A stretch of DNA of 63,785 bases, the filler included, from Sphacelaria rigidula (lineage: Eukaryota), in assembly GCA_964200075.2 (NCBI GenBank). It is 11 parts of 11 records of this genome, joined end to end, with 100 filler letters (N's around TTAATTAATTAA, not from the genome) between each part and the next. Parts side by side here need not be neighbours in the genome. Positions count along the whole stretch, not along the records: positions 23,233 to 28,940 come from CAXNAA020025089.1; 10 more parts are not named here. One strand, written 5' to 3'. Position numbers and translations under genes: made by a program. Shown one piece after another: positions 4,401 through 47,931 of this stretch (position 1 is the stretch's first letter; the number at the start of each line of letters is the position of its first letter). The notes under the pieces were generated by a model. It was not told the origin of the DNA, ran no database searches, and saw nothing but the letters and a program-made list of their open reading frames with translations.

Positions 4401-4902
4401 CTGGAACCCATTGACCATCGACTGTCGGACCGCACCGCCCCCTACACCCACATAACACGGGATGGTAATCCTCCTCCCTAACTTCGCGCTCTTGCACTCG
4501 CACTTGCACTCGCGCGTCTCCGCCGCCGGAGGGCTGGCACCCGCACAAAACACGGCTGATCTTTCCCCGTGGGGTCGATGTGTGCATGTTCAGATGAGTT
4601 GACAACAACCTTGCATTTTCGTCGTGGACGTGCGTACGTCATCCGATGCCGTCTTCCACCCACGGTTGGTGATGTCCACAGCAACCATGGAGTCTGCCAT
4701 CTCACCCCATCCATTATCCCAACACAGCACCAGCTCGCTGCGCTTAGAAGCGCAAGGCATCCGCGGGTAGTACGAGATCTATTGGCTTCCTGTCGCCCAT
4801 TTTCCATCTCAGGAATCTACCTCACCCAGTTGACCAAGAGCGTGATACCCCCCCAGCCTGGTCCGGCGAGAACCCGGCGTGCTCCGTCCCGGCTTTGTAG
4901 GG

Positions 4903-5316
4903 GCGGACCCCCGATGGGGTTGGCGTCAGTTGGCCATGGCGCTATAAAACACGCCACTCACTGCACAAGCTAGGCAACCAGGTTGCCGTTTTTTTCGCGC
5001 GCGCTTGCGCTTTATTTGCGGTAACCATGATGGTAGTCGAGCTCGATCATCTTGTGCGGCGTTGGAGAACCCCCAACTCCGCACAATGGGGATGGTCGTA
5101 CTACGTAATGTTTGAATGGTGAGACACCCATGAGGCAGTGTATAAGCCGTGGCTGTCTCTGGAAGTGGTGATACCAGATAATAAAGCAACTCGCTAGAGG
5201 CTGTCATCCAAATGCAAGATAATCAGTAGGCTCTGGGCGGAATAATCTTGGCAGTGTGCAGCTCACCCTTCATGCGACTCGCCAAACACACCACGGCGCT
5301 TCGCGCTTGGTGATTG
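4903..5316 (-). repeat. ~400-bp non-coding interspersed repeat family C (also 11617-11990 +, 13050-13440 +, fragment 46325-46364)
   Basis: Three long homologous copies on two unrelated contigs, plus a fragment on a third. Confidence 0.88.
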
Positions 5317-5708
5317 NNNNNNNNNNGCTTCGTAGGGATGCGAGGTCAATAGTCTTATGACTATGGCATGCATGATCATGAGTACACCCTCCCGGGCGCT
5401 GTTCTCCAGGATGTTGTCTGCGCTAGTTCCGGCCGTGGAGAATCCGGATTTTTTCTTGTAGTAAAAAAGCAACTGCGAGAACACACGTTCGTAGGAAATC
5501 ACAACAGAGCGTTATGTTCTGTTGGCCATGCGTATGGTGGTGGTTTCCCGTATGTGAGCATTCGTTCGTTTTAACCCTTTCGGAAACGTGATGGAAAAGT
5601 GACGATTGACGTTTTTTTCTTGGGGGGGGGGGGGGGGGGAAGATATAAAGGGTTTTTTTTTTGCAAGGAACTGTTGTTAGGGCGGCCCACCGGGGCGGGC
5701 GACCACTT

Positions 5709-11436: not shown

Positions 11437-11468
<32 letters not shown>

Positions 11469-14400
11469 ACCCACCCCACCCCACCACCACACAACCAAAA
11501 AAACAAACCGAACCGANNNNNNNNNNNNNNNNNNNNNNNNNNNNNNNNNNNNNNNNNNNNTTAATTAATTAANNNNNNNNNNNNNNNNNNNNNNNNNNNN
11601 NNNNNNNNNNNNNNNNGTTCGGCCAGTCGCATGAAGGGTGAGCTGCATCCGGCCAAGATTGTTCGGCCCGAAGCCTACTGATTATCTTGCATTTTGATGA
11701 CAGCCTTCAATGACTTCAATGAGTTTGCTTCATTTTTTGGTATCGCTGCTTCCTTAGACAGCCATCGCTTATACACTGCCTCATGGGTGTCTCAGCATTT
11801 GAGAACTACGTAGTACGTACGATCATCCCCATTGTGCGGAGTTGAGATTATCCCACGCTGCACAACATGATCTAGCTCGATTACCATCATGGTTACCGCA
11901 AAAGGAAACGCAAGCGGGGGAGAAAAACGGTGACTTGGTGATCGAGCTTACGCAGCGAGTGGCGTGTTTTATAGCGTCATCGCCAACCGGAAGGGTTATT
12001 CAGCACGACGAGTAATTCAGCCGCATACTACACCATGACCTACTACTTACTGTATCGGCTTCTTCTCTTAGAAAAAAACTGGGAGCTGCCACCTCAGAGC
12101 CTTTATACACCGGCGAATACACGAAGAGTAGCGTGTCGGCGAAGAGTAATGCGTCGGTGGAGAATGTGACCCCCTCAGCATATATTGATGTGTGCGTGAA
12201 CGTAACCTGTGACTTGAGGCCTACGGACCGTTTCAAGTGTGGGACGAATCATCGCTGTTGTGAATGACCAAGTATACGTTTTCTCAGGCGTGATTGGTCG
12301 AAACAGAGAAAAAAGCTGACCGCGGGTCATATAAGGATCTACGTTTAAATGATCGAGAGATTGAGATAAAGATCGACAGAGAGACGGAGACAGAGACAGA
12401 GACAGAGACAGAGACAAAGACAGAGACAGAGACAGAAACATACACGCACACACAAACACACACACGAACGAGCGAACATGGCCTTGTGTACACTGTAGAT
12501 GAACACACATTTTCATCTTTACCTCTCGTTCAAACGCCAAGTAGTCTTGACGGGTATATAAGGCTGGTTGCACCCGTCCAGAAGGCGATGGAGGGAAGTG
12601 CACGCCCTCTTCAGCACGGACGCGTGCGCAACGTCGAAGCGGAACCCCGCGGCAGCCAGTAGCTTACCCGCCTCGATAGCCTCCGCTTTCCCCTCTTCGG
12701 CCAGGGGCACATCACACCAACCCTGTACGGCAGGAGGGATGTGTATGTGTCATACTCCAGTGTGTGTAGATGTCATTATTCATTCGTGTTATATTCCATA
12801 TTAGCCATACTCCATGTGTGCGTCATATTCCATGTCTAAATGAAGAAACCAACGAAGAGCTCGACTCCGAATTGAACGCAAAACATTTTTCCGTGAAAAA
12901 AAAGACAGTCGTTCGTGCTGTCTTTTCTGGGGAGGCGCGCGGGAGGGGGGTTGGGGGGCGGGCGTACGCATAATCATGCATACCTCAGTCATGAGACCAT
13001 TGACCTCGCATCCCTACAAAGCCGGGACGGAGCACGCCGGTGCCAGGCTCGCGATCAAACACCGAGCGCCAAGCGCCGTGGTGAGTTCGGCGAGTCGCAT
13101 GAAGGGTGAGCATCCTGCTAGCATTGTTCGGCCCGAAGCCTACTGATTATCTTGCATTCGAATGACAGCCTACAATGCGTTGCTTCATTTTCTGGTATCG
13201 CCATTTGTAGAGACAGCCACGGCGTATACACTGCCTCACGAGTGTAATACAATCATCTCCATTGTGCGGAGTTGGGGTTCTCCCACGCCGCACAACATGA
13301 TCTAGCTCGACTACCATCATGGTTACCGGGAAATAAAACGCAAGCGCGCAAAGAAACCTCGGTAACCTGGTTGCCTAGTAAACGCAGTGAGTGGCGTGTT
13401 TTAAAGGGTCATCACCAACCGACGCCAACCCCATCGGGGGGGGGGGGAGGTTCTAAGGCTGTCGTGTCTGCTGTGATGTTTTTTCGACCTCGATTTCCTT
13501 GAGAGACGAGGGCTCTGTAAAAAACGTACGCCTATCGAAGGATCTCGACGAGGATGTCCCAACAAATATATTTATTAGTGTCATGAGGTCTATTTCCAAG
13601 ACAACCGACCTCCAAGAAGAGGAATGGCCACATTCAGGTATTCCAGAGCCCGTTGAGGACAAATCGAGGTATAGCTCTGGCGGTGGAAAAAAGGGTTGCC
13701 TTGAGTACTACCGCCATCTGATTGGCCAAGGGGGCAGAATACTCGATCGCGATTGCAACACCCAGCGGGTGTATCTAAGCTCGTCTACTTTTTCTTCGTG
13801 GAGTAAATGGAAGCTGTCAGTCGCTTGGCACATCTGTCGGCAAAGCCCGGAAATGCTGAGGAGATAGTGAGGAAAAGACAGGCCATGTCGTGACCCGTGA
13901 ACAAAAACATCCCGTCGGACCGTTGATCATAGCGTGCCCCGCCTTCTTTCATTCTTGAAACTTCGAAGCCCGGGGCTCTCACAGCACCGTGCTGACTCGG
14001 CGCTTACCCACGTTTTGTTGTCCCGCTGCGACTTTTGTCGTCGGTCGTAAGCTCTCGGATAGTCTTCCAGAGGTTTTTCGTTTCTTGGGGAGGTTTCTAC
14101 GATCGTTGTCGTCAGAGGCTGCCTGTCTTTCTGGGCCCGACCGATTTTTAATGGCCCGAAACAGGAAGGGCTCTGTGGAAAGGTTTGTCCGTTATTCGGG
14201 GAATGAAATCAGGCATGTTATCATGTCATCATGTTCTGATCATCTCCGGACGACTTTCCTCGAGGAATGCAGTGCTGTACAGGTATTCCAGACCACTCGA
14301 CATGACTCAGGGAAAAGTTTGGCGGGTGTTGATCCAAGACGGGAGCGTCCGCCCCCGTGACATTTACCATGATCTATTCGGTGAACGAACCATTTGCCGC

Positions 14401-17400
14401 TGTACTAATTGTATTCGACAGCTGTTCTGGAGCTGTGAGTACTATCGGTGCTGCTGCTCGGCGGTACTGCCTAGATTGCACGGGAGTCATAATGTTGTGT
14501 GTGCTATCTCCATTGTGGTGTATGCAGCCGTGCATCATTAATGTCTCATCTGTACAGCGAGGTGCAGCGTACTTGACGGAAGGCGTTTTCGAGAAATTCC
14601 TTCCCCGCCGAACGTTGATATCTCCGAAAACAGTATACTCTTGTCCACGAGATGAGCGGAAGAGAATCTACCTGGGAAAACTCTCGCCTCGGAGAGGTTC
14701 CCAAAAGGCTCTCGAGGAACGGTTTATCGAATATTAATATTAACTGGACCAGTCCCTCCTCTTCAATTCCCTCTCCCGAACTCTTCCGAGACATGTTCTC
14801 CTCGCATCATTAGAAGCGGCCTTCACAAATATAAATGCAGTCAGTCATCGATACTTTTTGCCAATGTAATCTATTTGTCACTGTCCAGGCTGTGATCTCG
14901 AGCGTGCCTGAAGTCGAGATATCGAACATAGTAGATTTACTGTATCAAAAGACCGCATCAAACGGACCAAGGATGCATGAACGTGAATTCATACCCCACA
15001 TACCGACCAGTAGATGTGACGGCGGGTGTCACGACGTTTCGAGGAGCAGACGTGTACCTAATGTTTCAGGGCATGCATCATCGCTTACAGACACCTGCAA
15101 CAAAGCGCGAACGCATCCTCAAAACAATGGAGTTGCGCAATCCTTCTGCATACACATCTTCGGCCGCAGCGACCACGCTTGCGTCATGCCAGAAACACTC
15201 CATGATGTCCACATCCCACTCAGATCCGCGAACAAGCTTCAATATGTCACCTCTTTTTCCGTGCTGTACAGTAGAGAAGCAAGGGAATGGAAGACTTGCA
15301 GACCAATCCTCGCGAGGGTACGCACACCCCAGCAAAACACGCGCATTCATATCCATCGCTAGCCCTTGCTTGTCTGCACAAAAGCGGCGTCCGACGGAAA
15401 TCCACACACGGACACTTTATGCGATAGCCCCCTTCCCAAAACCAGCCCACAAATATCACGAAAAAAAGGGTCATACTGCGCCTCGTGTTTGGTTTCGGGT
15501 TGCATGAAGCGCCTCATGTGGGCGGCTTTGGCGAAAACGAAGCCAAGCGTGGGAATTCCCAGCTGCTTGTTGTGCTCGGCTTTTTTCATTCCGATTCACG
15601 TGTAGGTTTTGCATCCCCAAACCAGCCACTTGTGGAGGGGGAGGGGGGGACGGCGGGGGACTATCGTAAAAAGTGTTCACTCAGCGGGAATATCAGGTCC
15701 GCACTGAAAAGTCTTCATTTCCTTCCTCAGTTGGAGATACCGTACTGCTGGTATCGTGTCCCCCGTTGCGGTTTCCAAAGTTCTCTGATGAAAGGAGCCT
15801 GTTTCTGCGCTTCACCTTTTCTGGTGTGCCATGAAGCAGAGCTTTACTGCGCGGATTATTCCATCTCGGAAAAAAGTTGCTCTTCTCTTCCTTTTTTTTC
15901 CTTCGAATCTTGGACTGCCGCTCTTGTTCCCTTTTATTTTTTTCATGTCTTCCCTTCATTATACTCATGTTCCAGTCTCATTCCCGTATCAAGTGTCGCG
16001 TTTTTTTCACCTTGGGTACGTCTGTCTGGTGGCCACGACCGGATGATGACCCGTAGCGAATTAGATCAATCAACGGATCTACTTTCAAAGATAATTGCAG
16101 ATGCCCGTTGTCCCGGTACGCAGGTTGTTGACCTTAGGCCGAATCAAGGTTTTCTTCTTGAACCAGTCTTCAATCCTTTGTACAAATCCCCTGAATCAGG
16201 TTCTTATCGTACAAATTTCAAACGTTTTGCGGTGTTGATGCCTCTTCGTCGCGGTGAGGGTTCTTGTCTGGAAACTTCCCACCCGAGTGGTGCTGCGATA
16301 ACCCCTCCCCCCAAAAGTGACTGGTTTGAGGGAGCAAAATCTTTTACAATGCGAATCGAAACGATCGATGCCGAGCACACCGAACGGCTGGGAACTCCCA
16401 CGGTTGAGATCGGTTTCGCCAATATCGCCCGTGTGAGGCGCTTCATGCATTCTGAGGGCAGCTATCACGCGTCGTATGGATATTTCTTTGTGACAGTTTG
16501 GGGCTGGGTTGGCGACGGGGGGGGGGATATGGCGGCACCACTTATCTGCTTTTTCCAATTCCCGCCTAAAAAGAGGGAGAAACGGGAGTTTCGTGTGAAG
16601 CGGTTTTGGGCCCATGTAATACGTTTCACGTCCCGTCATACGGTGTATCGACAGCGGCGCAAATGCCGAACATCGTAATGATCTCGAAGAACAGTAGAGA
16701 TATACCTACATGCAGTGCGACCGTGCTGTGTGCAATTTGGGGGCTGTGCGTGCCCTAGAGTGCGTGAAACAGGCAGGAATGCTGATTTCCGAGAGGTGCC
16801 CATTTTCCGAATCTGAACATAGAAATGAGCAACGTGGTGGGGAAATGAAGTTGCACAGCTTCTGAAGTTACAGAGAAAATGCGAAATGTGCACGGGTAAC
16901 GTGCAACACAAAATGAGTAATCATCTTATTTTTTTAATCGTTAATCAATGTTCTCATGAGGAGTGCCGTAGCCCTAGTCATACCCTAATCCAATGGGAAG
17001 ACGTACTCTGACGGGGTATCAAAACGGAACGTATGGGATTTGCGCTGTGCCGCCTTCCCTATCGTTTCCTTCGGATCTGGGTTCGAAACTTTGCTGCCCC
17101 CCCCCCCGCGCTTTCCGCCTGGTGATCGAGTACGAGCGTGGTCCGGCGAAAACCCGGCGCGCTCCGTCACGCCTTTGTAGAGATCCGAGGTCAATGGTCT
17201 GATGACCATGGCCAGCATGATTGTGAATACTCCCCCCCCTCCCTTGCTCCGTCTCGAAAGGGATGCGTGGTCAATGGTCAAATGACTAGGGCAAGCAACA
17301 AATGAGTACGCCGACCCCCCCACGNNNNNNNNNNNNNNNNNNNNNNNNNNNNNNNNNNNNNNNNNNNNTTAATTAATTAANNNNNNNNNNNNNNNNNNNN

Positions 17401-22913: not shown

Positions 22914-23581
22914 AGTTAGTACGAAACGAAAACCCCAAAACACCCCAGAATAGTTGGACCGCCCACTGCTGTACACGGGCGTTTGCTGAATTGAATGCAA
23001 GAACACGATACCTGCTTCAGTTCTCAACTCTTCGACTGTTCAAAAGCCACGGCCAGAACAAATATCCGGGGGGGGAGGGGGGGGGGGGGGGGGGCCCCCT
23101 TTTTTGCTTGCCTTACTCCTTTGGCTCTTTACNNNNNNNNNNNNNNNNNNNNNNNNNNNNNNNNNNNNNNNNNNNNTTAATTAATTAANNNNNNNNNNNN
23201 NNNNNNNNNNNNNNNNNNNNNNNNNNNNNNNNGGGGCGTACTCATTTGTTGCTTGCCTTAGTCATTTGACCATTGACCACGCATCCCTTTCGAGACGGAG
23301 CACCGCCGGAGGGGGCACCACCGGAGGGGACGGAGCACGTCACAAACAACGGTTCCGACAATGATGATATGAGCCAGAGGCCCAAAGGCTCTCGCACCTG
23401 TTACGTACGTACGGATCTCCTGGCTCCTGTACTGTAACCTGAGTAACCGCTAGGTTAGCGTTAGGTAACCGTTAGTAGGGCATGGTTGTACAAGAGCTCC
23501 ATACTGCCGGACCGCCACGTTCACGGGAGAACTCTGGTCTGCCTCCCGGCTCGAGACCAACAACCCTTGCCCTACCTAACA

Positions 23582-25159: not shown

Positions 25160-25736
25160 TCAGAAGCTATGTCACTTGGAGACCCTTCAAATTCCTCGCC
25201 GAGACAAGAAAAAGGGCACTGAGAGAGCTATGGCCAACGGCGAAGCGATGGGGACGGATCGGCTGGCTGCTGAACTAACTCTCAAGACTCGGGATTGGAT
25301 TGGTCGGGAAGTCTCCGGAGATCTTGTACCATTTCCGCCGCATCATCGCTACCGTGTGGAAGCCCGGCTACAGATGCGCAGTGCACGTGGAACGACATCC
25401 ACCATCAGAGTGCTACTACACACAAAAAAGGCACAGCCGAGAGTGTGCAGTCGCTACAGGGGGCATCTCCCTCGTAGGGCACGCTGAGGAAGTCCTCCCT
25501 CGACATCGTAGCCAAACAGGCTCTCGGTAGGTTCGACAAGGAAACGAGGCGTTTTCCCCGAAGAAAGGGTGTACGGATTCCGGCGCCGACGATCGACCAT
25601 CGGCATGATGTTCGTAAATTAGTGCACCAACCGCAGGAGTTGGGACGGGCGTACAAAATACGGGATATGATTATATGCATCATCGGCCGGCAGAAGTAAG
25701 GCGTCCGGTCTCTGTAGATCGTACGCTCCGGTTGGG

Positions 25737-25799
25737 GGCGTACTCATTTGTTGCTTGCCTTAGTCGTTTGACCATTGACCACGCATCCCTTTCGAGACG
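25737..25799 (-). mobile_element. C-tailed short element, subfamily A (also 17245-17312 +, 23233-23304 -, 36337-36413 +; degraded at 23093-23132, 40536-40556, 40657-40724)
   Basis: Near-identical ~70-nt copies. This copy is flanked by duplicated ACGCTCCGGTTGGG (25723-25736, 25797-25810). Confidence 0.85.
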
Positions 25800-27520
25800 C
25801 TCCGGTTGGGAGCGCTTGACCGTTTCGGAGTCCCGCTGCAGATGACGAAGGTCCTCCGTGGGTGTCACGATGGCATGCGCCTCTGGATGATAACGAGCTA
25901 TCAGAGTGGTTCCATGTCTGCGAGGAACTCAGGTAGGGACGAGTGTCGTCCCCCTTGCCGTTCGGCAATTTCGGCGGCAGCATTGGTCGACGCGATCTTA
26001 CAGCGTCCTGCGGCAGATCCGGCCATCGTATCAGACTTGGTATACCTGGGTGATGCTGCGATGAAGCGAGGACGGAGGATGACCACTCCACAGAGGATAC
26101 GTTACTGATGACGGTATGGTGCGCAGCGTGAGTCATGGAATGCTGCTGTACGTGCATGGCACAGGCACAGACTCGAGATTCCCAGACGGGCTTGCACCTT
26201 TGAGCTGTTGGTGTTCAATTAAAAAAAACAAGGTATCTCGATACCACAAACAGGGGTGTGCTGCCAGCAGTGGTAATAGCAACACGACCTCGCATTCTAC
26301 CGGAGTGTAGTATTGCAGCGCCTTTTGCTCACGACGACCAAAGAGGGTGCTGTCTGGGCAGCTAGGTTATACATTGCGTTTGGCTGGGGACGGGTAGGAG
26401 GATGAAGTTGGGTCGCACGGTGCAGCTGGCGTTTCGATAATCTGTTGTACCGCTATTTCGCCTTACTCCAAAACTTACAACGCAAAATGCCCCAAACATT
26501 TATTTCTGGTACAAATCGCTGACATATTGGCGGTGGGCAGTAGAGCGAAGAGTAACCTTAAAGTACTACTATGTGGTGGTGGAACAATTTTAAGACCAAG
26601 TGCAGTGTCATATTCCGGGCCCAGAAACGTCGATTCTCAACGGGATACGAACAGTGAAGCATGGAACCATGCCGCGTTAGATCCCCGCGGTAGCCTCTGC
26701 CGAGAAAAGAGTAATGGGGACCAAGGCAAAATCGACATGTATGTGAGATGTTTAGACCTGGATTCTCCAGAACCAGCTATATCTGCATTCTTCGTGGGGA
26801 AAAAAATCAAAATCTGGTTTCTGATACCACCTATATCTGCATTGTTCAAACTCGAGTTCAAGACGTGGTTTCTCAAACCAAATTCATCTCCATTCTTCAC
26901 ATAATAGTTCCAAGACCTGGTTTTTTAAACCAGCTCCGTCTCAATTCTTCATATAATAATTCCAAGACCTGGTTTCTGGCACTACCCGTCATGTCGATTT
27001 TCGGGGTGTGGCCGTTTCTTCGCAACAGTTTTTTCTTTCCTTTTGGGAGGGATGGGGGGGGTGGGACTATCGCGGCATCACTCTATGAACAAAGTTGCAC
27101 TACCGTTTCGACCTTTGACAACAGGAAACAGGCAGAACAAAGACAAAATACAAACCATTTATTTTGCGTGTTTAAGCTGATGCTCACCGACAATCTCCGA
27201 CGAGGTTCACTGAGTCCGGAGATTTCAATATGGAATGCCGTACTCCCACTAAAATCGACTACTCCATCGCCCAAACCCTACTGAGTTGGCAAACTGGATC
27301 GCAACTAACGGTACACGAGAGAGTGTTGAGAATCGGGCAAACGCAAGTTGCATCAACTTTTCTGGCGCATCTTTTTGTTTTCCCTGGCGCACTTTTTTAT
27401 CCACCGACGCTTCGTTTTTGGTCGCTTCATCTCCGTCGGTGCGTCACCTTTCTGTCGATGTGATTGGTTCGCTCTCACTCTGCGCAAAGAAAAAGAAGAA
27501 AGAAAACCAAACATCCGTAC

Positions 27521-34745: not shown

Positions 34746-35364
34746 TACNNNNNNNNNNNNNNNNNNNNNNNNNNNNNNNNNNNNNNNNNNNNTTAATTAA
34801 TTAANNNNNNNNNNNNNNNNNNNNNNNNNNNNNNNNNNNNNNNNNNNNTCCGGCTGTCAAACGCGCGAAAGCTGGTCTGTCGCGCCAGGTATCCGTGCTG
34901 GTGTGGAGACCTCTCTTCCAAGGACGTCCGCCCTCTTTAGTCTCAGCACATTTTAGGCCTTAGAGTATGACCCTCTTCGATTGACGCCGTGGATGATGAA
35001 TTATAATTTCAGTACAATGCCTCCATAACATTGAAAAGGAACAACACTGTTTTGGGACGTTTGACCCATTTTTTGACCCCCAAACAGGGAAAATCGCCAA
35101 CGCACGTCTCGGACACTTTGCATCACCCCACAAAGAGGAGCCTGGCCTACTTTTCAGATTCGCTTCGCTTCGAGGTTTCAAGATCGGCCGCTGAACAACA
35201 ACTCGTGTGCAATAATCTGTGCTTGCCAGCATACGGCAGTTTGCCCATTTATCTGTGGAAATCGCCGTAGATTTTATTACACACGGAGTATTGTTCAGCG
35301 GCCAATCTCGAAACCTCGGAGCCTAGCGAATCTGGAAAGTGGACTAGACTCCTCTCTGTGGGGT

Positions 35365-35455
35365 ACTCATGATCATGATGCCATAGTCATCAGACCATTG
35401 ACCTCGCATCCCTACAAAGCCGGGACGGAGCACGCCGGGTTTTCGCCGGACCAGG
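35365..35455 (-). mobile_element. C-tailed short element, subfamily B (also 12961-13040 -, 17135-17231 +, and split 4855-4902 / 5327-5389 +)
   Basis: ~95-nt copies. This copy is flanked by duplicated CTCCTCTCTGTGGGGT (35349-35364, 35456-35471). Confidence 0.85.
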
Positions 35456-36655
35456 CTCCTCTCTGTGGGGTGACGCAAAGTGTCCGAGACCTGTGTTGGC
35501 GATTTTCCCGAGGCGACCTGACGAACTGTACACAAACAACGGTTGGTACAGTGAAGATGCCGCCAATTCTCACGCTAACCCTAACCCTAACCCCGACGAA
35601 GGCATACCGAGAACCCTCGGGCAAGGGAGTGCAGAGTGTTCCCTAGGCAAAGTGTGCGTTGCCAGACCTCAAAGCGTCTCGGCATGCGCCGATTTTGGAC
35701 GAAAACACGTTCTGGACGAGCTGGGCCTACTGCTCACCACTGCTCACCTGCACCAGACCATGAATTTTCTCAGAACTTTGTTCAGTCTAAAATCAAGTAA
35801 AATCGAGTATCAACCATTGTTCATGTACAGTTCGTAAGGTCACTGATTTTCCTTGTTTGGGGGTCAAAAAGTGGGTCAAACGTCCCGAAAGTCAACAATC
35901 CGTGGGCCAAAAATCTGTGTGCCATGACATTCGGCCTCATATGATGTGTAGTATGATACTCGTCAGCATGGCAATATCGGAGGGTTACGACGTATGTAAA
36001 TGTATACTTTATCATGAGCACAGCATAAGATATAACAGGAACGACAACATTATAGGGAACAAATAGAGAGTAATATACAGCGCGGAAGATCATGAGTCGG
36101 AAACATCTAAGAGCGCAAAAGGACAGGACAGCGGTTGATCCTTGCATGGTGAGGGATGGGTCGTATCTTGAATCGGCATCAATTTCACTTGAAACGAGTA
36201 TGCATGGTCCAGATGGCCTGCCCTCACGGGTTAGGGGTCAACAGTTACAAGGGAACGGGTGAGACCGTACGCAATAAGAATAATTTCTATTGTAACCCCC
36301 CCTCCTTGACCGGGTGTCTCTATTAGGAGTAGGAACGGTGCTCCGTCTCGAAAGGGATGCGTGGTCAATGGTCAAACGACTAAGGCAAGCAACAAATGAG
36401 TACGCCCCCCCCCTCCCTCCTTGATCTTTGACCGTGCGACCGCAAAGGTGGGCAAGCTGGGTGTTGCTCATTTCTCAAGTAAAGATGATGGCCGATTTAA
36501 CTACCCGAGCGGCCGAAAAGAGAAGATTTGACGACCTGGGTAGGTCATCTCCTCAACCATCAACGACATGTTCGTTTGAAAAGCGAATCTGAGACCCAGA
36601 TCGCCCCCCCTAGCGGTCGAACGGCTGATGACCCATTAACCACCACGGTGGGCGA

Positions 36656-37130: not shown

Positions 37131-37236
37131 TTAACCCTTAGACCGCGAGATAAGTCTTTCTGGATCATGCATACTTTTTTTCACTTGGAATTGATGCTGA
37201 TTCAACAGAAGACTAACCTCGCGGTCTAACGGTTAA
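37131..37236. mobile_element. piggyBac-type MITE (~100 bp)
   Basis: TTAA-CCCTTAGACCGCGAG...CTCGCGGTCTAACGG-TTAA. Decayed relatives at ~36150, 36770, 37000, 37950, 38660 and 62900. Confidence 0.88.
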
Positions 37237-38752
37237 ACTCTAAAAGCAATATCTCATCGACACAGACGAGTTGGGCCGTGATCCGCATATCCCAATCAAG
37301 GGAAAGGTGCCCATCTGCTCAAAAATCTGGGCCAATTTTTTCTCGTTGACTAAACCCCATGTCTTGTGATTCCAATACCTAGCGGAGATCGCGCCAATAC
37401 TGAAATCTCGATGAAACTCCCGATCGATGCATTTAGCGGATAGCGACGAATTTTGGTGTGGAGAACCATAAAAGAATGCCGAATAAAAATAATAAAATGG
37501 GCCTTCATTATTTTTTTTCACAGAGGTTAGGGCGTTCTCGTGAAGAAACGGTCTTTATCATAGTAGAACGCCCTACACCAGTGAAAAAGATTGAAAAGAA
37601 TCAATCCGACCTACTTTTTGTTTTGTCAATCATGCCTTAGAGAGCGTCCACACAAAATTTCAATACACGAAAATCGAACACGGGCCGGTGAGTGGCCTGC
37701 GAAATACTGTTCCGAATGTCTACCGACCCGGTTTTGTAAAGGCCCATGCTCCCCCGCCAATATTTAGAGTTGAACCCTGAAAATTGGTATGGACAATGAA
37801 TAGGGCATGAAAAAAAGTTACATCGACACCAGAAGTTCTTCTTTTTTTCATGAGTTATGGGCAAGGTTAGCGATATTTATTAAAAAAAGGTGTCCGAGAA
37901 ATTTCGTCATCGACCAAGTGGTGAACACACCTCCCAGGATGGGTCATCTATCTGTTAAATCGGCATCATTTTCACTCCAAAAATGACTGTATGGCGGGGA
38001 CGACCCGCCCCGCGGTCAACAGGTTAACCCTCCCATCACCAGGAACATGGGGAGCAGGTCATCATTTGCTGAATCCGCATTATTCCCACGTGAAAACTGA
38101 ACTTGATGCCCAGATTGCCCAGCCTGGAGGTCAAACAAACGGTTGACCCCTTGAGCATCCGCGCCAGTGCGTAGCTGGACGGGAAGAGAACAGTAGTCCT
38201 TGGGAGGGGGGGGTTTAGGATCAGATGAAGATAGTGATCTTTGGTGGAGAGACATCCCACGCATATCGAGGGCCATCGACACGCCTAAACATGTATGCCA
38301 TGCGCCGGAGACGGTACAGATGTCAGCACATGAGCAACGACCAGGAGCGCTTCGCTATCTCAGAACGACCAAAATTCTCGGGCCAGTACCAGTACCAGTA
38401 CCAGTAAAGCTCGCCGATAATTTCCTCCGACAGCCGACAGCCAGCTGAGCAGGTCGTGTCCAACAACTTGCCATATACAAAACCAATGAATGCTCGTACA
38501 GTGCGACCGCAGCGGTAAGCTTACTCCCTCACAAGCCCGTGCTACCAGTAACTGCGGCGAGACATGCGAGTTTTCTAGTCGTTGAGTGCTTCCACAACCA
38601 TCACGAGGGTATACGAGCGGGTCAGGCTGAGAACGGATTTGAACGCCCCGGGCTCGAGCAGAGGCCATCTGTTGAATTAGCATGAGTTTCACTTGGAAAA
38701 TGAATACATGGCCAGATAATCTACCCTCGCGATCAAAGGGTTGAGCTCTCAC

Positions 38753-38948: not shown

Positions 38949-40334
38949 TCAGGCCGCTTCTTGCAGCAAACCAGAAGGAAAATTATGAAAAAATGCATGT
39001 TTGGTCCTTCTGCGTCGTTTCAGGCTCCAAGAGAGGGCTTGGCGGATCGGAATGTTTCTTTTCAACCGCACTTTTTCTATCGACACATGATGTGCTAAGT
39101 AAGACACGGCCCAAGTCTGCTATCGTCAGATAGCAAAAACAACAAAAATTGAAGTAGAGGACGGTACCCCGTTTACTGCGGGTCGAGACGACTCAATAGA
39201 CATCGCCATCCCGGCCGGAGAACGCCCGGCGAGGCCGCTCTAGCATCGATGGCTCTGCGGTCGCAACATCTGAGCCACGCTAAAGAGCACACTACGCTAG
39301 CCAACGGACATGTATCCTTTGAGACCACCGTTGCTTCACACTACAGCAGCCACCCTAGCGGTGGAACACTTTGGGCGCCTCGGCAAGTGCGGAGAGGACC
39401 TGCTCGATCAGTTGGCTTACCAGTGTCGTGGTGGGAGGAGAGGGTTGAAGGAATACCAGTAAAAAATGGGATCTCTTAGACAGGATCAGGCACGGGATAT
39501 CATTAACGACTTTATTTTGCTTGCTTTATTTTTTATATTTCTTGCACGTATCGTGCTAGTGTGATTTTTTCTGAGCCCAATTTTGTTATTTTTCATTTCC
39601 CTATACGGTATCTGTTTTAGATAGTTACCCGGTGATCACGGAAAGTCTCTGCATCAGATGCCCTGTACAGAGTACTGCGCAGATATCGAAACGGTTGTCA
39701 ATGTCAAAAACAACAACGCCTCCGATAAACGAGGTTGCCATCTCCAGGCGGGTGAAACGCTACTGCTCAGCACCGCGAGGTAGAAAAGAATGGGGTTGGG
39801 AATAGTTGTAGTAGCCTTAAACCAAGGGCGTGGGGTTGAAACCTAGACGTAACTCAAATAAACTGGCAATGATCACACTCCCCCCCCCCTGTGATGCAGT
39901 TACACAACAACACTAGACCAATCATCCCGACCGGGCGAAAAACCCGAAAGAGAACAACATTAACGATAAAAGTCCCGAGAATCAGTTACAATAGAACAGA
40001 CAAGCCTGCCGTAAGCGGGACAAATACTTGAATCTAGCCACGAAACGGGCGGACCCAAAATTACAGCAGACACAATAATGATGGTGAATATCTACAAAAA
40101 CGCGGAAACACACAGTCAAAAAGCACACACACGCGCGCGCGCACAAAATTATTTGCATAACGATGGCTCACCCGAACGACAAGCCTCGGACATATGCTTG
40201 AAAAAAAAATTGATGAGATGAAATAAATAATAAAAAAAAAACGAAACATATGAAGAAGAAAAAAATAGCAACCACGAGCTGTGAAACATAACACTAACGT
40301 GCAAGACAGACAAAAAACATCAAACGAACCGTAC

Positions 40335-40465
40335 CTCTCCGCCTCGAAGAACAGGACAAGCTTGTGTCGATCGAATTGAAATTCGGCATCCACGATCTTC
40401 ATGGGGAGGTTGCGGTTGCGAACCTTGGCCTGGCACACGAGAAGAATCTGCGCTTCTTCTTGCGT
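40335..40465 (-). CDS. Internal exon of a PSP1 C-terminal domain protein (PSP1/YaaT family)
   Basis: TAG acceptor and GTAC donor flank TQEEAQILLVCQAKVRNRNLPMKIVDAEFQFDRHKLVLFFEAE(R), which matches the PSP1 motif LPM.IVDAEYQFDR.KL.F.F.A..R. Confidence 0.85.
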
Positions 40466-41800
40466 CTAGTGGATGACAAGACGCACGAACAGAAAAAACC
40501 GCCAGGGAACAAGACACCAGGAGGGGGGGGGGGGGGGCGTACTCCTTTGTTGCGTGNNNNNNNNNNNNNNNNNNNNNNNNNNNNNNNNNNNNNNNNNNNN
40601 TTAATTAATTAANNNNNNNNNNNNNNNNNNNNNNNNNNNNNNNNNNNNNNNNNNNNGGGTGTCTTTTGTTGTTCGCCTCAGCCCTTTGGCCATTGAATAC
40701 GCACCCCTTTCAAGACGGAGCACGGCGCGGGGGGGGGGGTGACCGTCTGATGGGGAACTACTGTTTGATATTGCTGTACGATACAGTACATGATGTGAAA
40801 GTGTGTGTGCGCGCATCCGTGTCGGGGCTAGTACGTGAGAACTTGTACGGATAGGTTTACATAAATGTCTGTGTTGGATGGCCGCGTGTTGTAGCAGCTC
40901 GAGCCAGCTTCGCGCACTATATGTCTCGTATATATCAATGTTGCGACATGCGTCGAACCGTTCCGGAGCCTTTGCAGCTACCTGACCTTCTCGCAGCGAA
41001 ACTTGCAAAAAAGATAGATCTACATCACAAATAACGCATTTTTTTACAACAGAAATCATGAACAAGTCCCGCCGCCCACCACATGTCAACCCAACCCAGG
41101 CCCATGCTAAATCAAGGTACAGATCGCGGTTATCTTTTGACGGGTACACAAGCACCAGCTCGTCGTCAAGCAAAAACGCTATTTCGGGTACATCCTCACA
41201 AGCCCCATCGTGAGGGGCGAGAGAGGTATGAGCCGGATTCATCACTCGCGGAACTTTTCACAACTCGTTGTGCCGACGAATACTCCGCAACAAAATACCG
41301 GCCATCCCTGACTTTATTGCTTCGCTGGGAGTTCAGCCCTCACTATCGGACCCCTCCTGTCTGTCGGCTTTTATGTTGGAAGAGAGGGTCGACCAAGCGT
41401 GGTCACCCGTGCAGACATGGCTCCATAGCTACGGTACCGAGCCTTACCGTACACGTATCATAATCCAACGCGCACACAGGAATCATTTATACAAAAGCCT
41501 CGATCAGATACCATTCGACAGGTCGATGTACATGCAATTTATGCTAGGATGTATTTAACATGGACAGCGCGCGGTGGGGGGCAGTGATTTGACTGTGGTT
41601 CGTTTGAATTTTCCCGTATTTACCCCTTGTCGCATAGGGCTTTCTTATCAACGAGACACTTTTTTTTTCTTACTTTTTTCATCACTTTTTTTTTCTAGCT
41701 TCTCCCAAAACAAAATGCTTGGAACAATCCGACGCAAGATTTTTGGAGAAGCCCCAAGTCAGTCTCAAATTCTCACATTTTTCGGGGGAAAAGTCTTTTA

Positions 41801-45450: not shown

Positions 45451-46464
45451 ACAGAAGGAGGTTCAGTTGCAGAATCTCGGTTGTACAGTGTAGCAAAATC
45501 GAGCTACAGAACCGCTTTTTTTTTCAATGTATCCCGGCGACGATGGGCACATGAACTGATCGCGTCATCACCGACTACTTCTTCCCACAACGTGGACAAG
45601 TCGGGTGTCAACACACGTCAATATGTTTGCTGCTTGTGCGCTAGTCCGGAGGGCGGAGAGGTTCGGAGATCTTTTCCCGGAAAAAGACACGGGATTGATC
45701 GCTCGTCGCGTCCTGTAATGGTTAGTAATTGTTTGTAACTGTAACTGTTAACGGCAAAAATGTGTGCACATAATCGATTTTCCGGGTGCGACGGTTGCGG
45801 TTGCTGCGTGTTTCGGGGTTGCGCGTGTTGAGGGTAAGAAGAGAACTTGTGTTTTCCAAGACGACTGTATCCCAGAATGTCCATCATGAGGCACGGCGGG
45901 TAGTGGTCCAAAACAACTATGGTAAGGTGCAACTGCAGGTCAGAAAATGTACGCCCCAAAATAAAGACCACGGCCGGTGAACCCGTTGAATATCTGGCCC
46001 GAGGGTGGTGCACGAATGGAGAGTGCAGAAACTAAGCCTCTCTTGCGGATGACTGTTTGAAGCGAGAATGATTCGGTGCCCTTCTTCCGCAGAGATTATG
46101 GGTGAGAGCTCATTCATGTCCAAATAGTATGGTCCAAAAAGAGCCCAAGTATATATATTTTCTCCCCAAGACTTTTTTGCTTTGCTTCGTAAATGGGTGC
46201 ACGTGCTTCTTACGCACGGCCTTTTGTTCACCGGAAGCCACGCTGCAGGGGCCGGGCCGGCCATTTATGAGTTATTTCGTTGTCTACCTTCATCGTTTCA
46301 TTTCTATCCCCCCCCCCCCCCCCCTAGCTAGGCAACCAGGTTACCGCTTTTTTTTTGCGCGCTCNNNNNNNNNNNNNNNNNNNNNNNNNNNNNNNNNNNN
46401 NNNNNNNNTTAATTAATTAANNNNNNNNNNNNNNNNNNNNNNNNNNNNNNNNNNNNNNNNNNNN

Positions 46465-46900
46465 CTCCGTATACTCCGCCTCCTGCGTGATGTTTTTGAC
46501 GGGGGTGTCGTATCTTATTATGGTTTTGTCGTTCATGGCTCCGGGGAAGCCCTCTGTACCGGCTAGGACGGGCCCCGAATGATCAACCGCCGCCTGATGA
46601 GCGATTGTCGGAGCAAGTAGCACATCTTGCACATTACCGCCGTGGCGTCGTGAGATTAAACAGCCGCTCCGTATAATTCGTCTCCTTTCTGGTGTTCGGG
46701 ATGGCGGCTTTACATCGGATGATCGTCGTGTCGTTCATGACTCCGAAGAAGCCCACTGGGACGGCCAGGATGCGTCCCGAATGATCAACCGTCGCCTGAT
46801 GGGCGATTGTTGGATAAACTTCCCCTCCCGTGTACAGTCGTTGGAGGCTGAAAGGGCAGCGGTCCCACTTGACATGAGTAACACCCCAATAGCTGCAAGC
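46465..46900 (-). pseudogene. PIF/Harbinger DDE transposase fragments (two tandem diverged copies of one segment)
   Basis: THVKWDRCP...YPTIAHQATVDHSGRILAV..GFFGVMNDTTII and PTIAHQAAVDHSG...GFPGAMNDKTIIRYD carry Harbinger/Plant_tran-type catalytic-region motifs. Confidence 0.85.
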
Positions 46901-47931
46901 AAGGCCCTCATTGATTGGTCCTCGCGCATTAACGGACAACCGAGGGATCCGGGCGTAGTCACAAGATTGACGCGCCCACCGTCAACGACACGAAAACATT
47001 TGCCGAGGAGAAATATTAATGCACAACTAAAAAACGCAGTCAACGAAGAAATGAAGCCAAGTGGTAAAACGGAAGGAAGGCAACACACCCGCAAGTAACA
47101 GCCTAGAACCGGCTAGCACCTCCAGCATTGCGCCAGGCGCGAAAGGCCGTGGACAAGAAACGCACACGCACGACCCTGCATGAAAGAAAACGAGAAGGTC
47201 GTGGCAAAGGATTGTGGTTCAGCTTCTTCGGTACCAGGAGTTTTGGGAAATAGCTGTTACCTTAATCCCTACGGAGCTAACGCACAAGCAATGGCGCCAT
47301 ACATCACTGAGAGTCGGAGAGAGACAAAAAAAGGCGAAAAACGAAACAATGGCGCCCCGCTACCAATGCAACGCCCAGTGTCCACATCCGGCGCTCACAG
47401 CGCCACAAACGCCACAACAGCTCTACTCGCTGCCCGTTTTGTGTCTTCGCCCTTCCCCGTCTCGGACTCCAACCCCAGCTTCCCGCGCGCGCCCTCGCAA
47501 CCATCACCCCACCTTTGAGTGAGAAGGCGAGCCGGGCAGCCACAACGGTTAACGCAAAACCCGCGAACAGCACCACGCCATAGGAGAGTATGAAATGTAC
47601 AAAATGTACACCATCACCATTGCCACACATACACGTATACGTCGGAGCGTTACTGTGATCTGCTCGGCCCCGACGCTCCAAGGACGCAACCCCCCGCTTC
47701 CAACAACCTCTGAGGTGGTACCCTGGGCCCGGTTCTGTATGCCAGTCATTTAGGCACTCTGTGTGTGTTGGGAAAGCTTCTGCAACGGGGTACTGCGTGT
47801 ACACGTGCACATCGATCAGTCGGCGCCGCCACAAGTGTGGATGCAACCGGCGCCCAAGAGGATTCGCCTGTACTGTCCACCAGCGTTACGACCAGACGAC
47901 CGTCTCCACCTAAGCCCTCCACGGGGGCTAA

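What the first reader, a model, noticed from the sequence alone, without database searches (positions are those of the whole stretch)
25723..25810. C-tailed mini-retroposons that insert at G-runs with long TSDs (candidate undescribed mobile system)
Seen: two related ~65-100 nt families occur at least 11 times on 6 of the 11 unrelated contigs. One end is fixed (..ATGAGTAC(G)CCC plus further Cs) and almost always abuts a G/C run. The other end is variably truncated. Flanking duplications vary in length: 14 bp at 25723/25797, 16 bp at 35349/35456 and 10 bp at 36300/36415. Each ends in GGG on the strand that continues into the element. The 25737 copy interrupts the RTE SVDRTL-W..L.RFGVP frame, so it is a true insertion. 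There are no TIRs, A/B boxes or poly(A). Established: variable TSDs with a fixed 3' end and truncated 5' end are hallmarks of target-primed reverse transcription. Inference: an oligo(C) RNA end primes on genomic oligo(G), mirroring poly(A)/oligo(T) priming by L1. The driver is not the local RTE, whose tail is (CAAT)n. A microsatellite-biased Penelope-like (Chlamys/Naiad-type) element or an unknown non-LTR element is a candidate.
Basis: partly seen in the sequence, partly recalled or inferred. Interest (0 to 1): 0.78.

Follow-up and report, generated by a model that had tools for sequence, protein, structure and literature searches.

The report
Truncated ends of a C-tailed LINE
The short C-tailed repeats are real insertions, but they are the cut-off tail ends of an ordinary jumping gene (a LINE of the RTE-X type) and of its small dependent partner, a pair already catalogued with the same C-rich tail in the brown alga Ectocarpus.

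Summary
The window is 11 unrelated 5.7-kb pieces. It carries 13 copies of two related repeats (6 of family A, 7 of family B) on 5 pieces, plus a degenerate one on a sixth. All copies with a readable 3' end finish in ..GAGTAC(G) followed by a C-rich stretch, usually a C-run. The 5' ends vary, and three copies have exact target-site duplications (TSDs) of 10, 14 and 16 nt.

The "undescribed mini-retroposon" reading does not hold. In a marine metagenome contig and a mis-binned contig, family A is the last ~100 nt of a 1253- to 1382-codon endonuclease plus reverse-transcriptase frame. Its stop codon lies inside the terminal box, followed by GTACG and a C-run. Family A copies are therefore severely 5'-truncated LINE insertions.

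Family B is a ~475-nt non-coding partner that shares only the ~75-nt tail.

A 2025 curated Ectocarpus transposable-element (TE) library lists RTE-X LINEs with "(C)n 3'" and "C-rich" TSDs, and 607- and 188-bp non-autonomous partners sharing the 3' end. The nearest named proteins here are from Ectocarpus.

Integration by target-primed reverse transcription at G/C runs is consistent with the data but inferred.

One modestly new point: the tail folds into a conserved RNA module that overlaps the end of the ORF. A distant relative with a (TAT)n tail shares it.

The parts
36313..36404 (+). Family A copy: 92-nt 5'-truncated LINE 3' end, ending GAGTACG
   Evidence: 98.9% identical over 91 nt to the end of the full-length LINE in L070. 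Translates to the last 28 residues of the LINE ORF.
36405..36413 (+). C9 tail of that copy. A T and then the 3' TSD copy (36415-36424) follow. The 5' TSD copy is at 36300-36309.
   Evidence: Read directly. The exact 10-nt duplication CCCTCCTTGA leaves nine Cs plus a T that the target does not account for.
25739..25799 (-). Family A copy of 58-61 nt. This is the copy named in the finding.
   Evidence: 98.3% over 60 nt to L070. The last 3 nt overlap the TSD, a microhomology at the 5' junction.
25723..25736 (-). 3' copy of the 14-nt TSD. Positions 25737-25738 are two extra Cs (GG on +). The 5' copy is at 25797-25810.
   Evidence: Read directly. The target has 3 Cs and the filled site has 5.
23233..23305 (-). 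Family A copy (23237-23305) plus a C4 tail cut by the start of the piece
   Evidence: 100% over 68 nt to L070.
17245..17321 (+). Family A copy (17245-17310) plus tail CC-GA-C7. It is inserted directly behind the C-run tail of a family B copy.
   Evidence: 98.5% over 65 nt to L070. Tandem arrangement read.
40523..40556 (-). Family A copy: the last 19 nt (40538-40556, cut by the piece end) plus a C15 tail (40523-40537)
40657..40739 (-). Diverged family A copy, cut by the piece start, with a C11 run at its 5' junction (40729-40739)
   Evidence: 87% over 39 nt. C-run.
35364..35455 (-). Family B copy: 92-nt 5'-truncated, flanked by a 15-16-nt TSD (35349-35364 / 35456-35471)
   Evidence: Read directly. 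98% over 54 nt to the long B copy.
12963..13447 (-). Family B long copy (12963-13435, ~473 nt, non-coding) with C12 at the 5' junction (13436-13447). C-rich DNA follows the 3' end (12945-12962).
   Evidence: Alignment with the 4908-5386 copy, same 5' start. No tRNA or Rfam match in the head.
4855..5386 (+). Family B: a 48-nt internal fragment (4855-4902) directly upstream of a long copy (4908-5386, which contains an N10 gap)
17097..17239 (+). Family B copy (about 17108-17231) with C11 at the 5' junction and a C8 tail
11617..11989 (-). Family B long copy. It is 5'-truncated by ~20 nt and its 3' part is cut by the piece start.
   Evidence: 75-80% over ~375 nt to the other long copies. Sequence.
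46308..46364 (+). Family B fragment (46325-46364, cut by the piece end) preceded by C17
23077..23120 (-). Possible degenerate family-A-like end next to a run of 18 G (C on the element strand)
   Evidence: A 12-nt blast seed and reading. Weak.

Best explanation
Family A copies are 'dead-on-arrival', severely 5'-truncated insertions of an autonomous single-ORF LINE. It encodes an AP-type endonuclease, a reverse transcriptase and a C-terminal Cys/His motif. It is about 5 kb or more and is most likely of the RTE-X clade.

The ORF runs to within a few bases of the 3' end. The stop codon TGA sits inside the terminal ATGAGTAC box, and only GTACG plus a variable C-run follow.

Family B is a ~475-nt non-coding, LINE-dependent (SINE-like) element. 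It has borrowed the ~75-nt 3' tail and is itself often 5'-truncated.

Inferred mechanism, for both families:
- They integrate by target-primed reverse transcription.
- The endonuclease nicks the bottom strand at or in a G-run.
- The C-ending 3' terminus of the RNA pairs with that G-run.
- The RT, which recognises the conserved 3' RNA module, starts cDNA synthesis and usually stops early.
- A second nick 10-16 nt away gives a TSD that begins with the C-run.
- Where the target is a long C-run, often the tail of an earlier copy, both junctions are C-runs and copies pile up in tandem.
For: Shown:
1. Of 69 metagenome loci holding the 20-nt core, 3 extend to the whole family-A sequence (L011, L018, L050). 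All three continue 5' into shared sequence.
2. In L011 the family-A sequence is the end of a 1253-codon frame, open at the contig end. It has Exo_endo_phos (E 3e-11) and RVT_1 (E 8e-33), and its stop lies in the terminal box.
3. L070 holds a 95%-identical copy with a 1382-codon frame, followed by GTACG and C13.
4. All 5 well-preserved window A copies are 98-100% identical to L070's last 60-91 nt. The window holds no further LINE coding sequence: tblastn with 14 relatives hits only these tails.
5. Three short copies carry exact TSDs, so they were inserted short.
6. Contigs of 4 public runs continue 5' of 36313 into the LINE body. They continue 3' of 36413 into 12-16 Cs and then unlike sequence. 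The family-B end reads GAGTACA plus about 13 Cs (table 7).
7. Two long B copies start at the same base and share ~480 nt, and a third starts ~20 nt further in. The B copies match the LINE only in the tail, at 54 of 77-79 columns. A 5-nt loop indel there breaks the LINE frame.
8. The nearest named proteins are from Ectocarpus (58-71% identity). One Ectocarpus model ends in nearly the same C-terminal peptide.
9. The curated Ectocarpus library lists RTEX-1/2 ('single EN-RT ORF; (C)n 3'', TSD 'C-rich', 5.5-5.9 kb). It also lists RTEX-N1 (607 bp, 60-bp 3' end 83% like RTEX-1/2, 'can be present in tandem') and RTEX-N2 (188 bp). Source: PMC12477816, passages and supplementary file 1.

Inferred: the nick site, the C/G pairing and early RT termination.
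Against: - RTE-X membership was not tested by phylogeny or against Repbase. The FASTA libraries of PMC12477816 could not be read here, so identity with the named Ec32 families is unproven.
- The source of the C-run is ambiguous. At 36405-36413 nine Cs and a T lie outside the exact TSD, and at 25737-25738 two Cs do. At the 35364 copy no C lies outside the TSD.
- Only 3 TSDs could be read. No whole genome is held, so the target preference rests on 9 window 3' junctions, 4 loci and consensus loose ends.
- Transcription is not shown. The one 'RNA?' run is a guess by the tool.
- Many long C/G runs in the window have no A or B copy beside them.
Confidence: 0.87

Rival explanations
1. A and B are autonomous-size-independent 'mini-retroposons' of 65-100 nt, forming an undescribed mobile system driven by a Penelope-like or unknown enzyme.
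For: All copies in the window are short. No RT gene with this tail lies in the window.
Against: - The copies are collinear with the end of an APE-RT ORF found elsewhere.
- The 5' ends differ from copy to copy.
- The ORF has no GIY-YIG domain, and no hammerhead or other Rfam family was found.
- The same kind of element is catalogued in Ectocarpus.
Confidence: 0.03
2. Same LINE and partner, but the RNA carries no C tail. The element is a sequence-specific inserter into pre-existing (C)n/(G)n tracts, like microsatellite-specific LINEs, and all Cs at the junction come from the target.
For: - The 35364 copy has no C outside its TSD.
- At least 6 copies have C-runs at both junctions.
- The window holds 62 C or G runs of 6 or more, many without an element beside them.
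- The Ectocarpus table says '(C)n termini/TSD'.
Against: - At 36405-36414 nine Cs and a T lie between GTACG and an exact 10-nt TSD, and at 25737-25738 two Cs do.
- A relative in another genome has a variable (TAT)n tail behind the same terminal box. This argues that the tail repeat is templated by the element.
Confidence: 0.2
3. Family B is not a SINE-like element with a foreign head. It is an internally deleted derivative of a related LINE, made of that LINE's 5' end plus its 3' end.
For: - No tRNA, 5S or other small-RNA head was found.
Against: blastn and tblastx of the B body against L070 (which holds ~1 kb upstream of the ORF) and all other loci match only the tail. L070 may lack the true 5' end, and the parent could be another family.
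Confidence: 0.3
4. Assembly or chimera artefact: the repeats and their C-runs are products of sequencing or assembly.
For: - Five piece ends fall inside these repeats or their C-run tails (11617, 23233, 40556, 40657, 46364). A sixth (17324) lies 3 nt beyond the C-run behind the 17245 copy.
- An N10 gap lies in one copy.
Against: - The same sequence with diverse flanks is in contigs of 4 runs from 3 studies and in 4 independent metagenome or MAG contigs.
- Exact TSDs are present.
- Piece ends at repeats are what a high-copy repeat does to a short-read assembly.
Confidence: 0.01

Closest known systems
RTEX-1_Ec32 / RTEX-2_Ec32, RTE-X clade LINEs of Ectocarpus (PMC12477816, supplementary file 1; rows read)
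   Same: - Single endonuclease-RT ORF.
- (C)n at the 3' end.
- 'C-rich' TSD and termini.
- Several kb long, frequently 5'-truncated, thousands of copies.
- The nearest named proteins to the ORF found here are Ectocarpus models, one with nearly the same C-terminal peptide.
   Different: - The consensus sequences could not be read here, so no direct alignment was made.
- Identity to the Ectocarpus protein models is 58-71%, against 90-95% to unnamed metagenome relatives. This is probably a sister family in a related host.
- The clade label is taken from that paper, not tested here.
RTEX-N1_Ec32 (607 bp) and RTEX-N2_Ec32 (188 bp), non-autonomous partners (same source)
   Same: - Short non-coding element with a head of unknown origin.
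- Only the last 60-100 nt resemble the LINE (83% there; 54 of 77-79 columns here).
- C-rich TSD.
- Occurs in tandem (17108-17310 and 4855-5386 here).
   Different: Family B is ~475 nt, not 607 or 188. Sequence relationship untested.
'Stringent-type' LINE/SINE pairs, in which the RT recognises a specific 3' stem-loop plus a short terminal repeat (eel UnaL2/UnaSINE1; recalled from memory, not from a call)
   Same: LINE and partner share a conserved, structured 3' end followed by a short repeat of variable length. There is no poly(A).
   Different: The tail repeat is a C homopolymer. The structured module overlaps the end of the ORF instead of lying in a 3' UTR.
L1/Alu integration at T-rich nicks with poly(A)/oligo(T) pairing (established knowledge)
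   Same: - The tail homopolymer is continuous with the start of the TSD.
- TSDs vary in length.
- 5' truncation is common.
- New copies land in the tails of older ones.
   Different: - C/G instead of A/T.
- The tail is probably not added by polyadenylation.
- Specific 3' sequence is shared between LINE and partner.
   Same: Retroelements of the same host group, with microsatellite-associated insertion.
   Different: The ORF here has an N-terminal AP endonuclease and no GIY-YIG domain. No hammerhead was found, and the tail is (C)n, not (A)n.

Membership tests
APE-type non-LTR retrotransposon (LINE) | Reverse transcriptase domain of the non-LTR type | tested here: met
   RVT_1 E 7.7e-33, residues 634-883 of the L011 frame.
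APE-type non-LTR retrotransposon (LINE) | N-terminal apurinic/apyrimidinic-type endonuclease | tested here: met
   Exo_endo_phos E 3.1e-11 (residues 64-285) and Exo_endo_phos_2 E 9e-7.
APE-type non-LTR retrotransposon (LINE) | Fixed 3' end, variable 5' truncation, TSDs of variable length, no terminal repeats | tested here: met
   Six A copies of 19-92 nt share one 3' end. TSDs are 10, 14 and 15-16 nt.
RTE-X clade | RT phylogeny groups with reference RTE-X elements (Repbase RTEX families) | not testable with these tools
   No reference RT set is held. The label rests on PMC12477816, whose curators report best blastp to RTEX-4_NV and RTEX-1_BF for the Ectocarpus (C)n-tailed LINEs, and on 58-71% identity of the ORF here to Ectocarpus models.
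RTE-X clade, Ectocarpus-type families (RTEX-1/2_Ec32) | Single EN-RT ORF, (C)n 3' end, C-rich TSD | tested here: met
   One 1382-codon frame in L070, followed by GTACG and C13. C-rich stretches follow all 9 readable window 3' junctions, and all 3 TSDs begin with CCC.
SINE (for family B) | Head derived from a Pol III-transcribed RNA (tRNA, 5S, 7SL) with an internal promoter | tested here: not met
   ARAGORN finds no tRNA in the window. Rfam at E up to 10 gives only a chance miRNA hit. B is therefore filed as a 'non-autonomous LINE-dependent element', as the Ectocarpus curators did.
SINE (for family B) | 3' tail shared with a partner LINE; short; non-coding | tested here: met
   Tail identity 54 of 77-79 columns. 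Body ~475 nt with no match to the LINE elsewhere.
Penelope-like element | GIY-YIG endonuclease, pLTR, hammerhead ribozyme | tested here: not met
   Pfam finds APE and RVT_1 only. Rfam finds no family in the window at gathering scores.

The most novel reading that the evidence does not exclude
The last ~70 nt of this LINE clade form a conserved three-way-junction RNA that overlaps the final ~25 codons, and the stop codon lies in the closing helix. This module would be the RT's recognition handle. The short repeat behind it would choose the target by pairing with the nicked DNA: (C)n in the brown-alga-like host, (TAT)n in a distant relative. If so, changing the tail repeat would retarget the element.

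Support so far:
- The same core and terminal boxes occur in a 35-58%-identical family of another eukaryotic genome.
- About 30 relatives end in a GCVVNG-like peptide 6-9 residues before the stop.
- For the inner hairpin, 71 of 72 cells pair and 2 of 8 pairs change on both sides.
- By my own reading, one compensatory pair lies in each of the other two helices.
- Family B keeps the nucleotides although its frame is broken.
Probability: 0.35. Interest if true: 0.45.

Novelty: new member of a known kind. Interest (0 to 1): 0.2.

Why it matters
As a discovery it matters little. It is one more LINE/partner pair of a type already curated in Ectocarpus. The result mainly warns that very short, C-tailed repeats in brown-alga-like genomes are truncated RTE-X ends, not a new mobile system.

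Two things keep some interest:
- A homopolymer-C tail with matching G/C-run targets is an unusual natural mirror of poly(A)/oligo(T) priming. It appears only as a table remark in the papers I could search.
- The recognition RNA overlaps the ORF end and is conserved across very distant hosts with different tail repeats. That would make tail-directed target choice directly testable.

These elements also seem to seed many of the long C/G runs and to break short-read assemblies of this genome.

Tried and rejected
- Hammerhead or other ribozyme: family B has CTGATGA and GAAA, but Rfam gave 0 matches over the window at gathering scores. At E up to 10 on 12940-13520 it gave only a chance miRNA hit.
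- tRNA, spliced-leader or other small-RNA origin: no tRNA; dropped once the ORF was found.
- Whole genome: none is held, so no genome-wide TSD table.
- Pfam on 150 six-frame ORFs of the window gave only a PSP1 exon and two sub-threshold hits, Plant_tran and MFS_1. Nothing was found in the frames around 25500-26100.
- 66 of the 69 metagenome hits to the 20-mer were chance matches.
- Viral contigs: 15 pattern matches, none a relative.
- The two MAGs behind L070 and L075 held no further copy beyond L070 itself.
- Protein atlas: only unnamed RT/endonuclease clusters, no clade information.
- Single-sequence folds of the tails were not more stable than shuffles in 4 of 5 cases (z -0.87 to +0.36; one at -2.07). 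The structure argument therefore rests on conservation and covariation only.
- In the relative's genome (G003), 8 truncated copies were examined for TSDs. Only 1 gave a clear one (15 nt); in the other 7 the blast boundary was probably not the true 5' end.
- Literature: searches for oligo(C)/poly(C)-tailed retrotransposons and for RTE-X tails returned nothing relevant apart from PMC12477816, which one search had found first. Searches gave no useful listing.
- Read laying showed no contig joining across an empty A or B site among the joints listed. Most joints were not shown, so this says nothing about polymorphism.
- Earlier notes of this scan: none.
Full report
**What the window is.** The window is 11 unrelated pieces of 5707-5708 nt joined by artificial spacers. 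No whole genome is held. The DNA is eukaryote-like and mostly non-coding. Of 150 six-frame ORFs, only a PSP1 exon passed Pfam's cut-off; a Plant_tran and an MFS_1 hit fell below it.

**The observation.**
- Family A has 6 copies of 19 to 92 nt.
- Family B has 7 copies. Three are long (373 to ~479 nt) and four are short (40 to ~124 nt).
- They lie on 5 pieces. A degenerate A-like end at 23095-23120 would add a sixth.

The shared 20-nt core occurs 8 times with up to 3 mismatches, against 0.02 expected (0 of 100 shuffles reached 8). Every copy with a readable 3' end finishes in GAGTAC(G), or a close variant, followed by a C-rich stretch. In 8 of the 9 this is an uninterrupted C-run of 3 to 15; in the copy at 17245-17310 it is CC-GA-C7.

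Three copies have exact duplications: 14 nt (25723/25797), 15-16 nt (35349/35456) and 10 nt (36300/36415). Each begins with CCC in element orientation.

Two details need qualification.
- The frame interrupted at 25737 is only weakly RT-like. Pfam finds nothing. tblastn with 121 LINE proteins gives short collinear RT-motif matches at E 2e-4 to 0.07.
- Family B is not only short. Two copies of ~475 nt start at the same base, and a third starts ~20 nt further in.

**What family A is.** A scan of metagenome contigs with the core gave 69 loci, and 3 of them carry the whole family-A sequence. All three continue 5' into shared sequence beyond the longest window copy.

In L011 that sequence is the end of a 1253-codon frame, still open at the contig end. 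The frame has an AP-type endonuclease (Exo_endo_phos, E 3e-11), RVT_1 (E 8e-33) and a C-terminal Cys/His motif. The stop codon TGA lies inside the ATGAGTAC box, so the 3' untranslated part is GTACG plus a C-run.

A scan of genome contigs found L070, a mis-binned 5259-nt contig. It holds a 95%-identical copy with one 1382-codon frame, followed by GTACG and 13 Cs. The five well-preserved window A copies are 98-100% identical to the last 60-91 nt of L070.

tblastn with 14 relatives finds nothing of the LINE in the window except these tails. The short copies carry their own TSDs, so they were inserted short. They are classic 5'-truncated LINE insertions, not a family of mini-elements.

**What family B is.** The long B copies share ~480 nt with each other at 75-80% identity. 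They match the LINE only in the last ~75 nt, at 54 of 77-79 aligned columns. A 5-nt difference in one loop puts the two conserved halves of the tail in different frames, so the conservation is at nucleotide level.

ARAGORN finds no tRNA, and Rfam at E up to 10 finds nothing credible in the head. B is a LINE-dependent, SINE-like partner with a head of unknown origin.

Copies sit in tandem. The A copy at 17245 lies directly behind the C-run tail of the B copy at 17108. A B fragment at 4855-4902 abuts the long copy at 4908.

**Abundance.** Contigs of four public runs (three studies) were laid on piece 7. Summed contig depth over the two elements is 1 to 3 million, against about 15-45 in the unique part of the piece. 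The tool warns that this is not a copy number (table 2).

The loose ends are more telling (table 7).
- Hundreds of contigs continue 5' of 36313 into the LINE body.
- Hundreds continue 3' of 36413 as 12-16 Cs and then unlike sequence.
- The B end reads GAGTACA plus about 13 Cs.
- Some 5' junctions are C-runs.

Five piece ends fall inside these repeats or their C-run tails (11617, 23233, 40556, 40657, 46364), and 17324 lies 3 nt beyond the C-run that follows the 17245 copy. This fits a high-copy repeat breaking a short-read assembly. One contig of 1715 nt in a run that the tool only guesses to be RNA ends in the A tail. I do not count this as evidence of expression.

**Is it known?** The nearest named proteins are Ectocarpus gene models, at 58-71% identity. 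Unnamed metagenome relatives reach 77-90%. One Ectocarpus model ends in almost the same C-terminal peptide.

The relevant paper is 'Characterization of the transposable element landscape shaping the Ectocarpus genome' (PMC12477816). I saw passages of the main text and part 1 of 3 of supplementary file 1. [quoted passage not shown] It also states that a ~600-bp element, RTEX-N1_Ec32, shares its 3' end with autonomous RTE-X elements, and that the origin of its head could not be determined.

The curation table lists:
- RTEX-1_Ec32: 'single EN-RT ORF; (C)n 3'', TSD 'C-rich', 5867 bp.
- RTEX-2_Ec32: '(C)n termini/TSD'.
- RTEX-N1_Ec32: 607 bp, '60 bp 3' end 83% RTEX-1_Ec32/RTEX-2_Ec32', 'can be present in tandem'.
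- RTEX-N2_Ec32: 188 bp.

Every structural feature found here matches this description. The paper's FASTA libraries cannot be read here. I therefore could not align the sequences, and the RTE-X label is adopted, not tested.

My searches for oligo(C)-tailed retrotransposons found nothing else.

**Mechanism.** The shown steps are the enzyme domains, the fixed 3' end, the truncated 5' ends, the variable TSDs that start with the C-run, and the tandem stacking. The inferred steps are a bottom-strand nick at a G-run, pairing of a C-ending RNA terminus with it, and early termination of cDNA synthesis.

Whether the Cs come from the RNA or from the target is only partly resolved.
- At 36405-36414, nine Cs and a T lie between GTACG and an exact 10-nt TSD.
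- At 25737-25738, two Cs are extra.
- At the 35364 copy, none is.

At least six copies have C-runs at both junctions. The Ectocarpus table also notes this ('(C)n termini/TSD'). The simplest reading is insertion into pre-existing C-runs with a short all-C duplication.

**A conserved 3' module.** A 16-Mb record labelled as a bacterial MAG has Mb-sized contigs at 41% GC and many LINE copies, so it is evidently eukaryotic (G003). It carries a 35-58%-identical family.

That family has the same TGCGTGGTCAATGG core and the same ATGAGTA box containing the stop codon. It is followed by a variable (TAT)n repeat instead of Cs: of the 18 G003 loci whose 3' junction was read, 12 show at least two TAT units.

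About 30 protein relatives end in a GCVVNG-like peptide 6-9 residues before the stop.

For the inner hairpin, 71 of 72 cells pair and 2 of 8 pairs change on both sides. Slid controls pair at 15-57%. Only three independent families stand behind these numbers.

By my own reading of the sequences, two further helices are kept. One is a stem closed by a tetraloop in A and in the relative, and by a 9-nt loop in B. The other is a long-range helix between GTGCTC and the terminal GAGTAC. Each has one compensatory change in the relative, and the long-range helix also has one broken pair.

Single-sequence folds are not more stable than shuffles in 4 of 5 cases. This module is the only part that may go beyond what is in print. 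It remains a hypothesis.

**Verdict.** The 'new mobile system' interpretation is not supported. The TPRT and C/G-run idea is reasonable and in line with the Ectocarpus curation. This is a new member of a known kind, of low interest.

Noticed in passing
window 37131-37237: A ~107-nt MITE-like insert with terminal inverted repeats (AGACCGCGAG / CTCGCGGTCT), flanked by TTAA/TTA. Many contigs of all four runs skip exactly this stretch (skips of 102-111 nt). Other copies of the surrounding repeat therefore lack it.
   Followed up: partly
window about 35567-35590: Three telomere-like CCCTAA units inside a piece, between the B copy at 35364 and the A copy at 36313.
   Followed up: no
window 11439-11468, 5622-5639, 23077-23094, 46308-46324 and others: There are 62 C or G runs of 6 or more in 63 kb, up to C30. 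Many have no A or B copy beside them. They may be tails of other families or of copies truncated to nothing.
   Followed up: partly
piece boundaries 11617, 17324, 23233, 40556, 40657, 46364: Five piece ends fall inside A or B copies or their C-run tails, and 17324 lies 3 nt beyond the C-run behind the 17245 copy. An N10 gap sits in the B copy at 5317-5326. The assembly seems to break at these repeats.
   Followed up: no
G003 (genome behind L072-L107, L109-L138): A 16-Mb record labelled as a bacterial MAG has contigs up to 2.7 Mb at ~41% GC. It holds at least 41 copies of an APE-RT LINE tail, so it is evidently eukaryotic DNA filed as a prokaryote. L070, L071, L075 and other 'MAG' contigs also carry such LINEs.
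   Followed up: partly
window 25425-25993 (+): A decayed RT-like gene with collinear motifs (KK..RVCS.YRG, GFR..RST, FD..PR, SP.PF) and stops. This is the host of the copy at 25739-25799.
   Followed up: partly
window 46637-46981 (-) and 40064-40465 (-): A weak Plant_tran (Harbinger/PIF-type transposase) match at E 5e-4, and a PSP1 C-terminal exon at E 4e-12.
   Followed up: no
window 12963-13435 and 4908-5386, near the 5' end of family B: A TATAAAA box about 40 nt from the 5' end of the long B copies, and an internal inverted repeat (TTGTGCGG ... CCGCACAA). No function tested.
   Followed up: no
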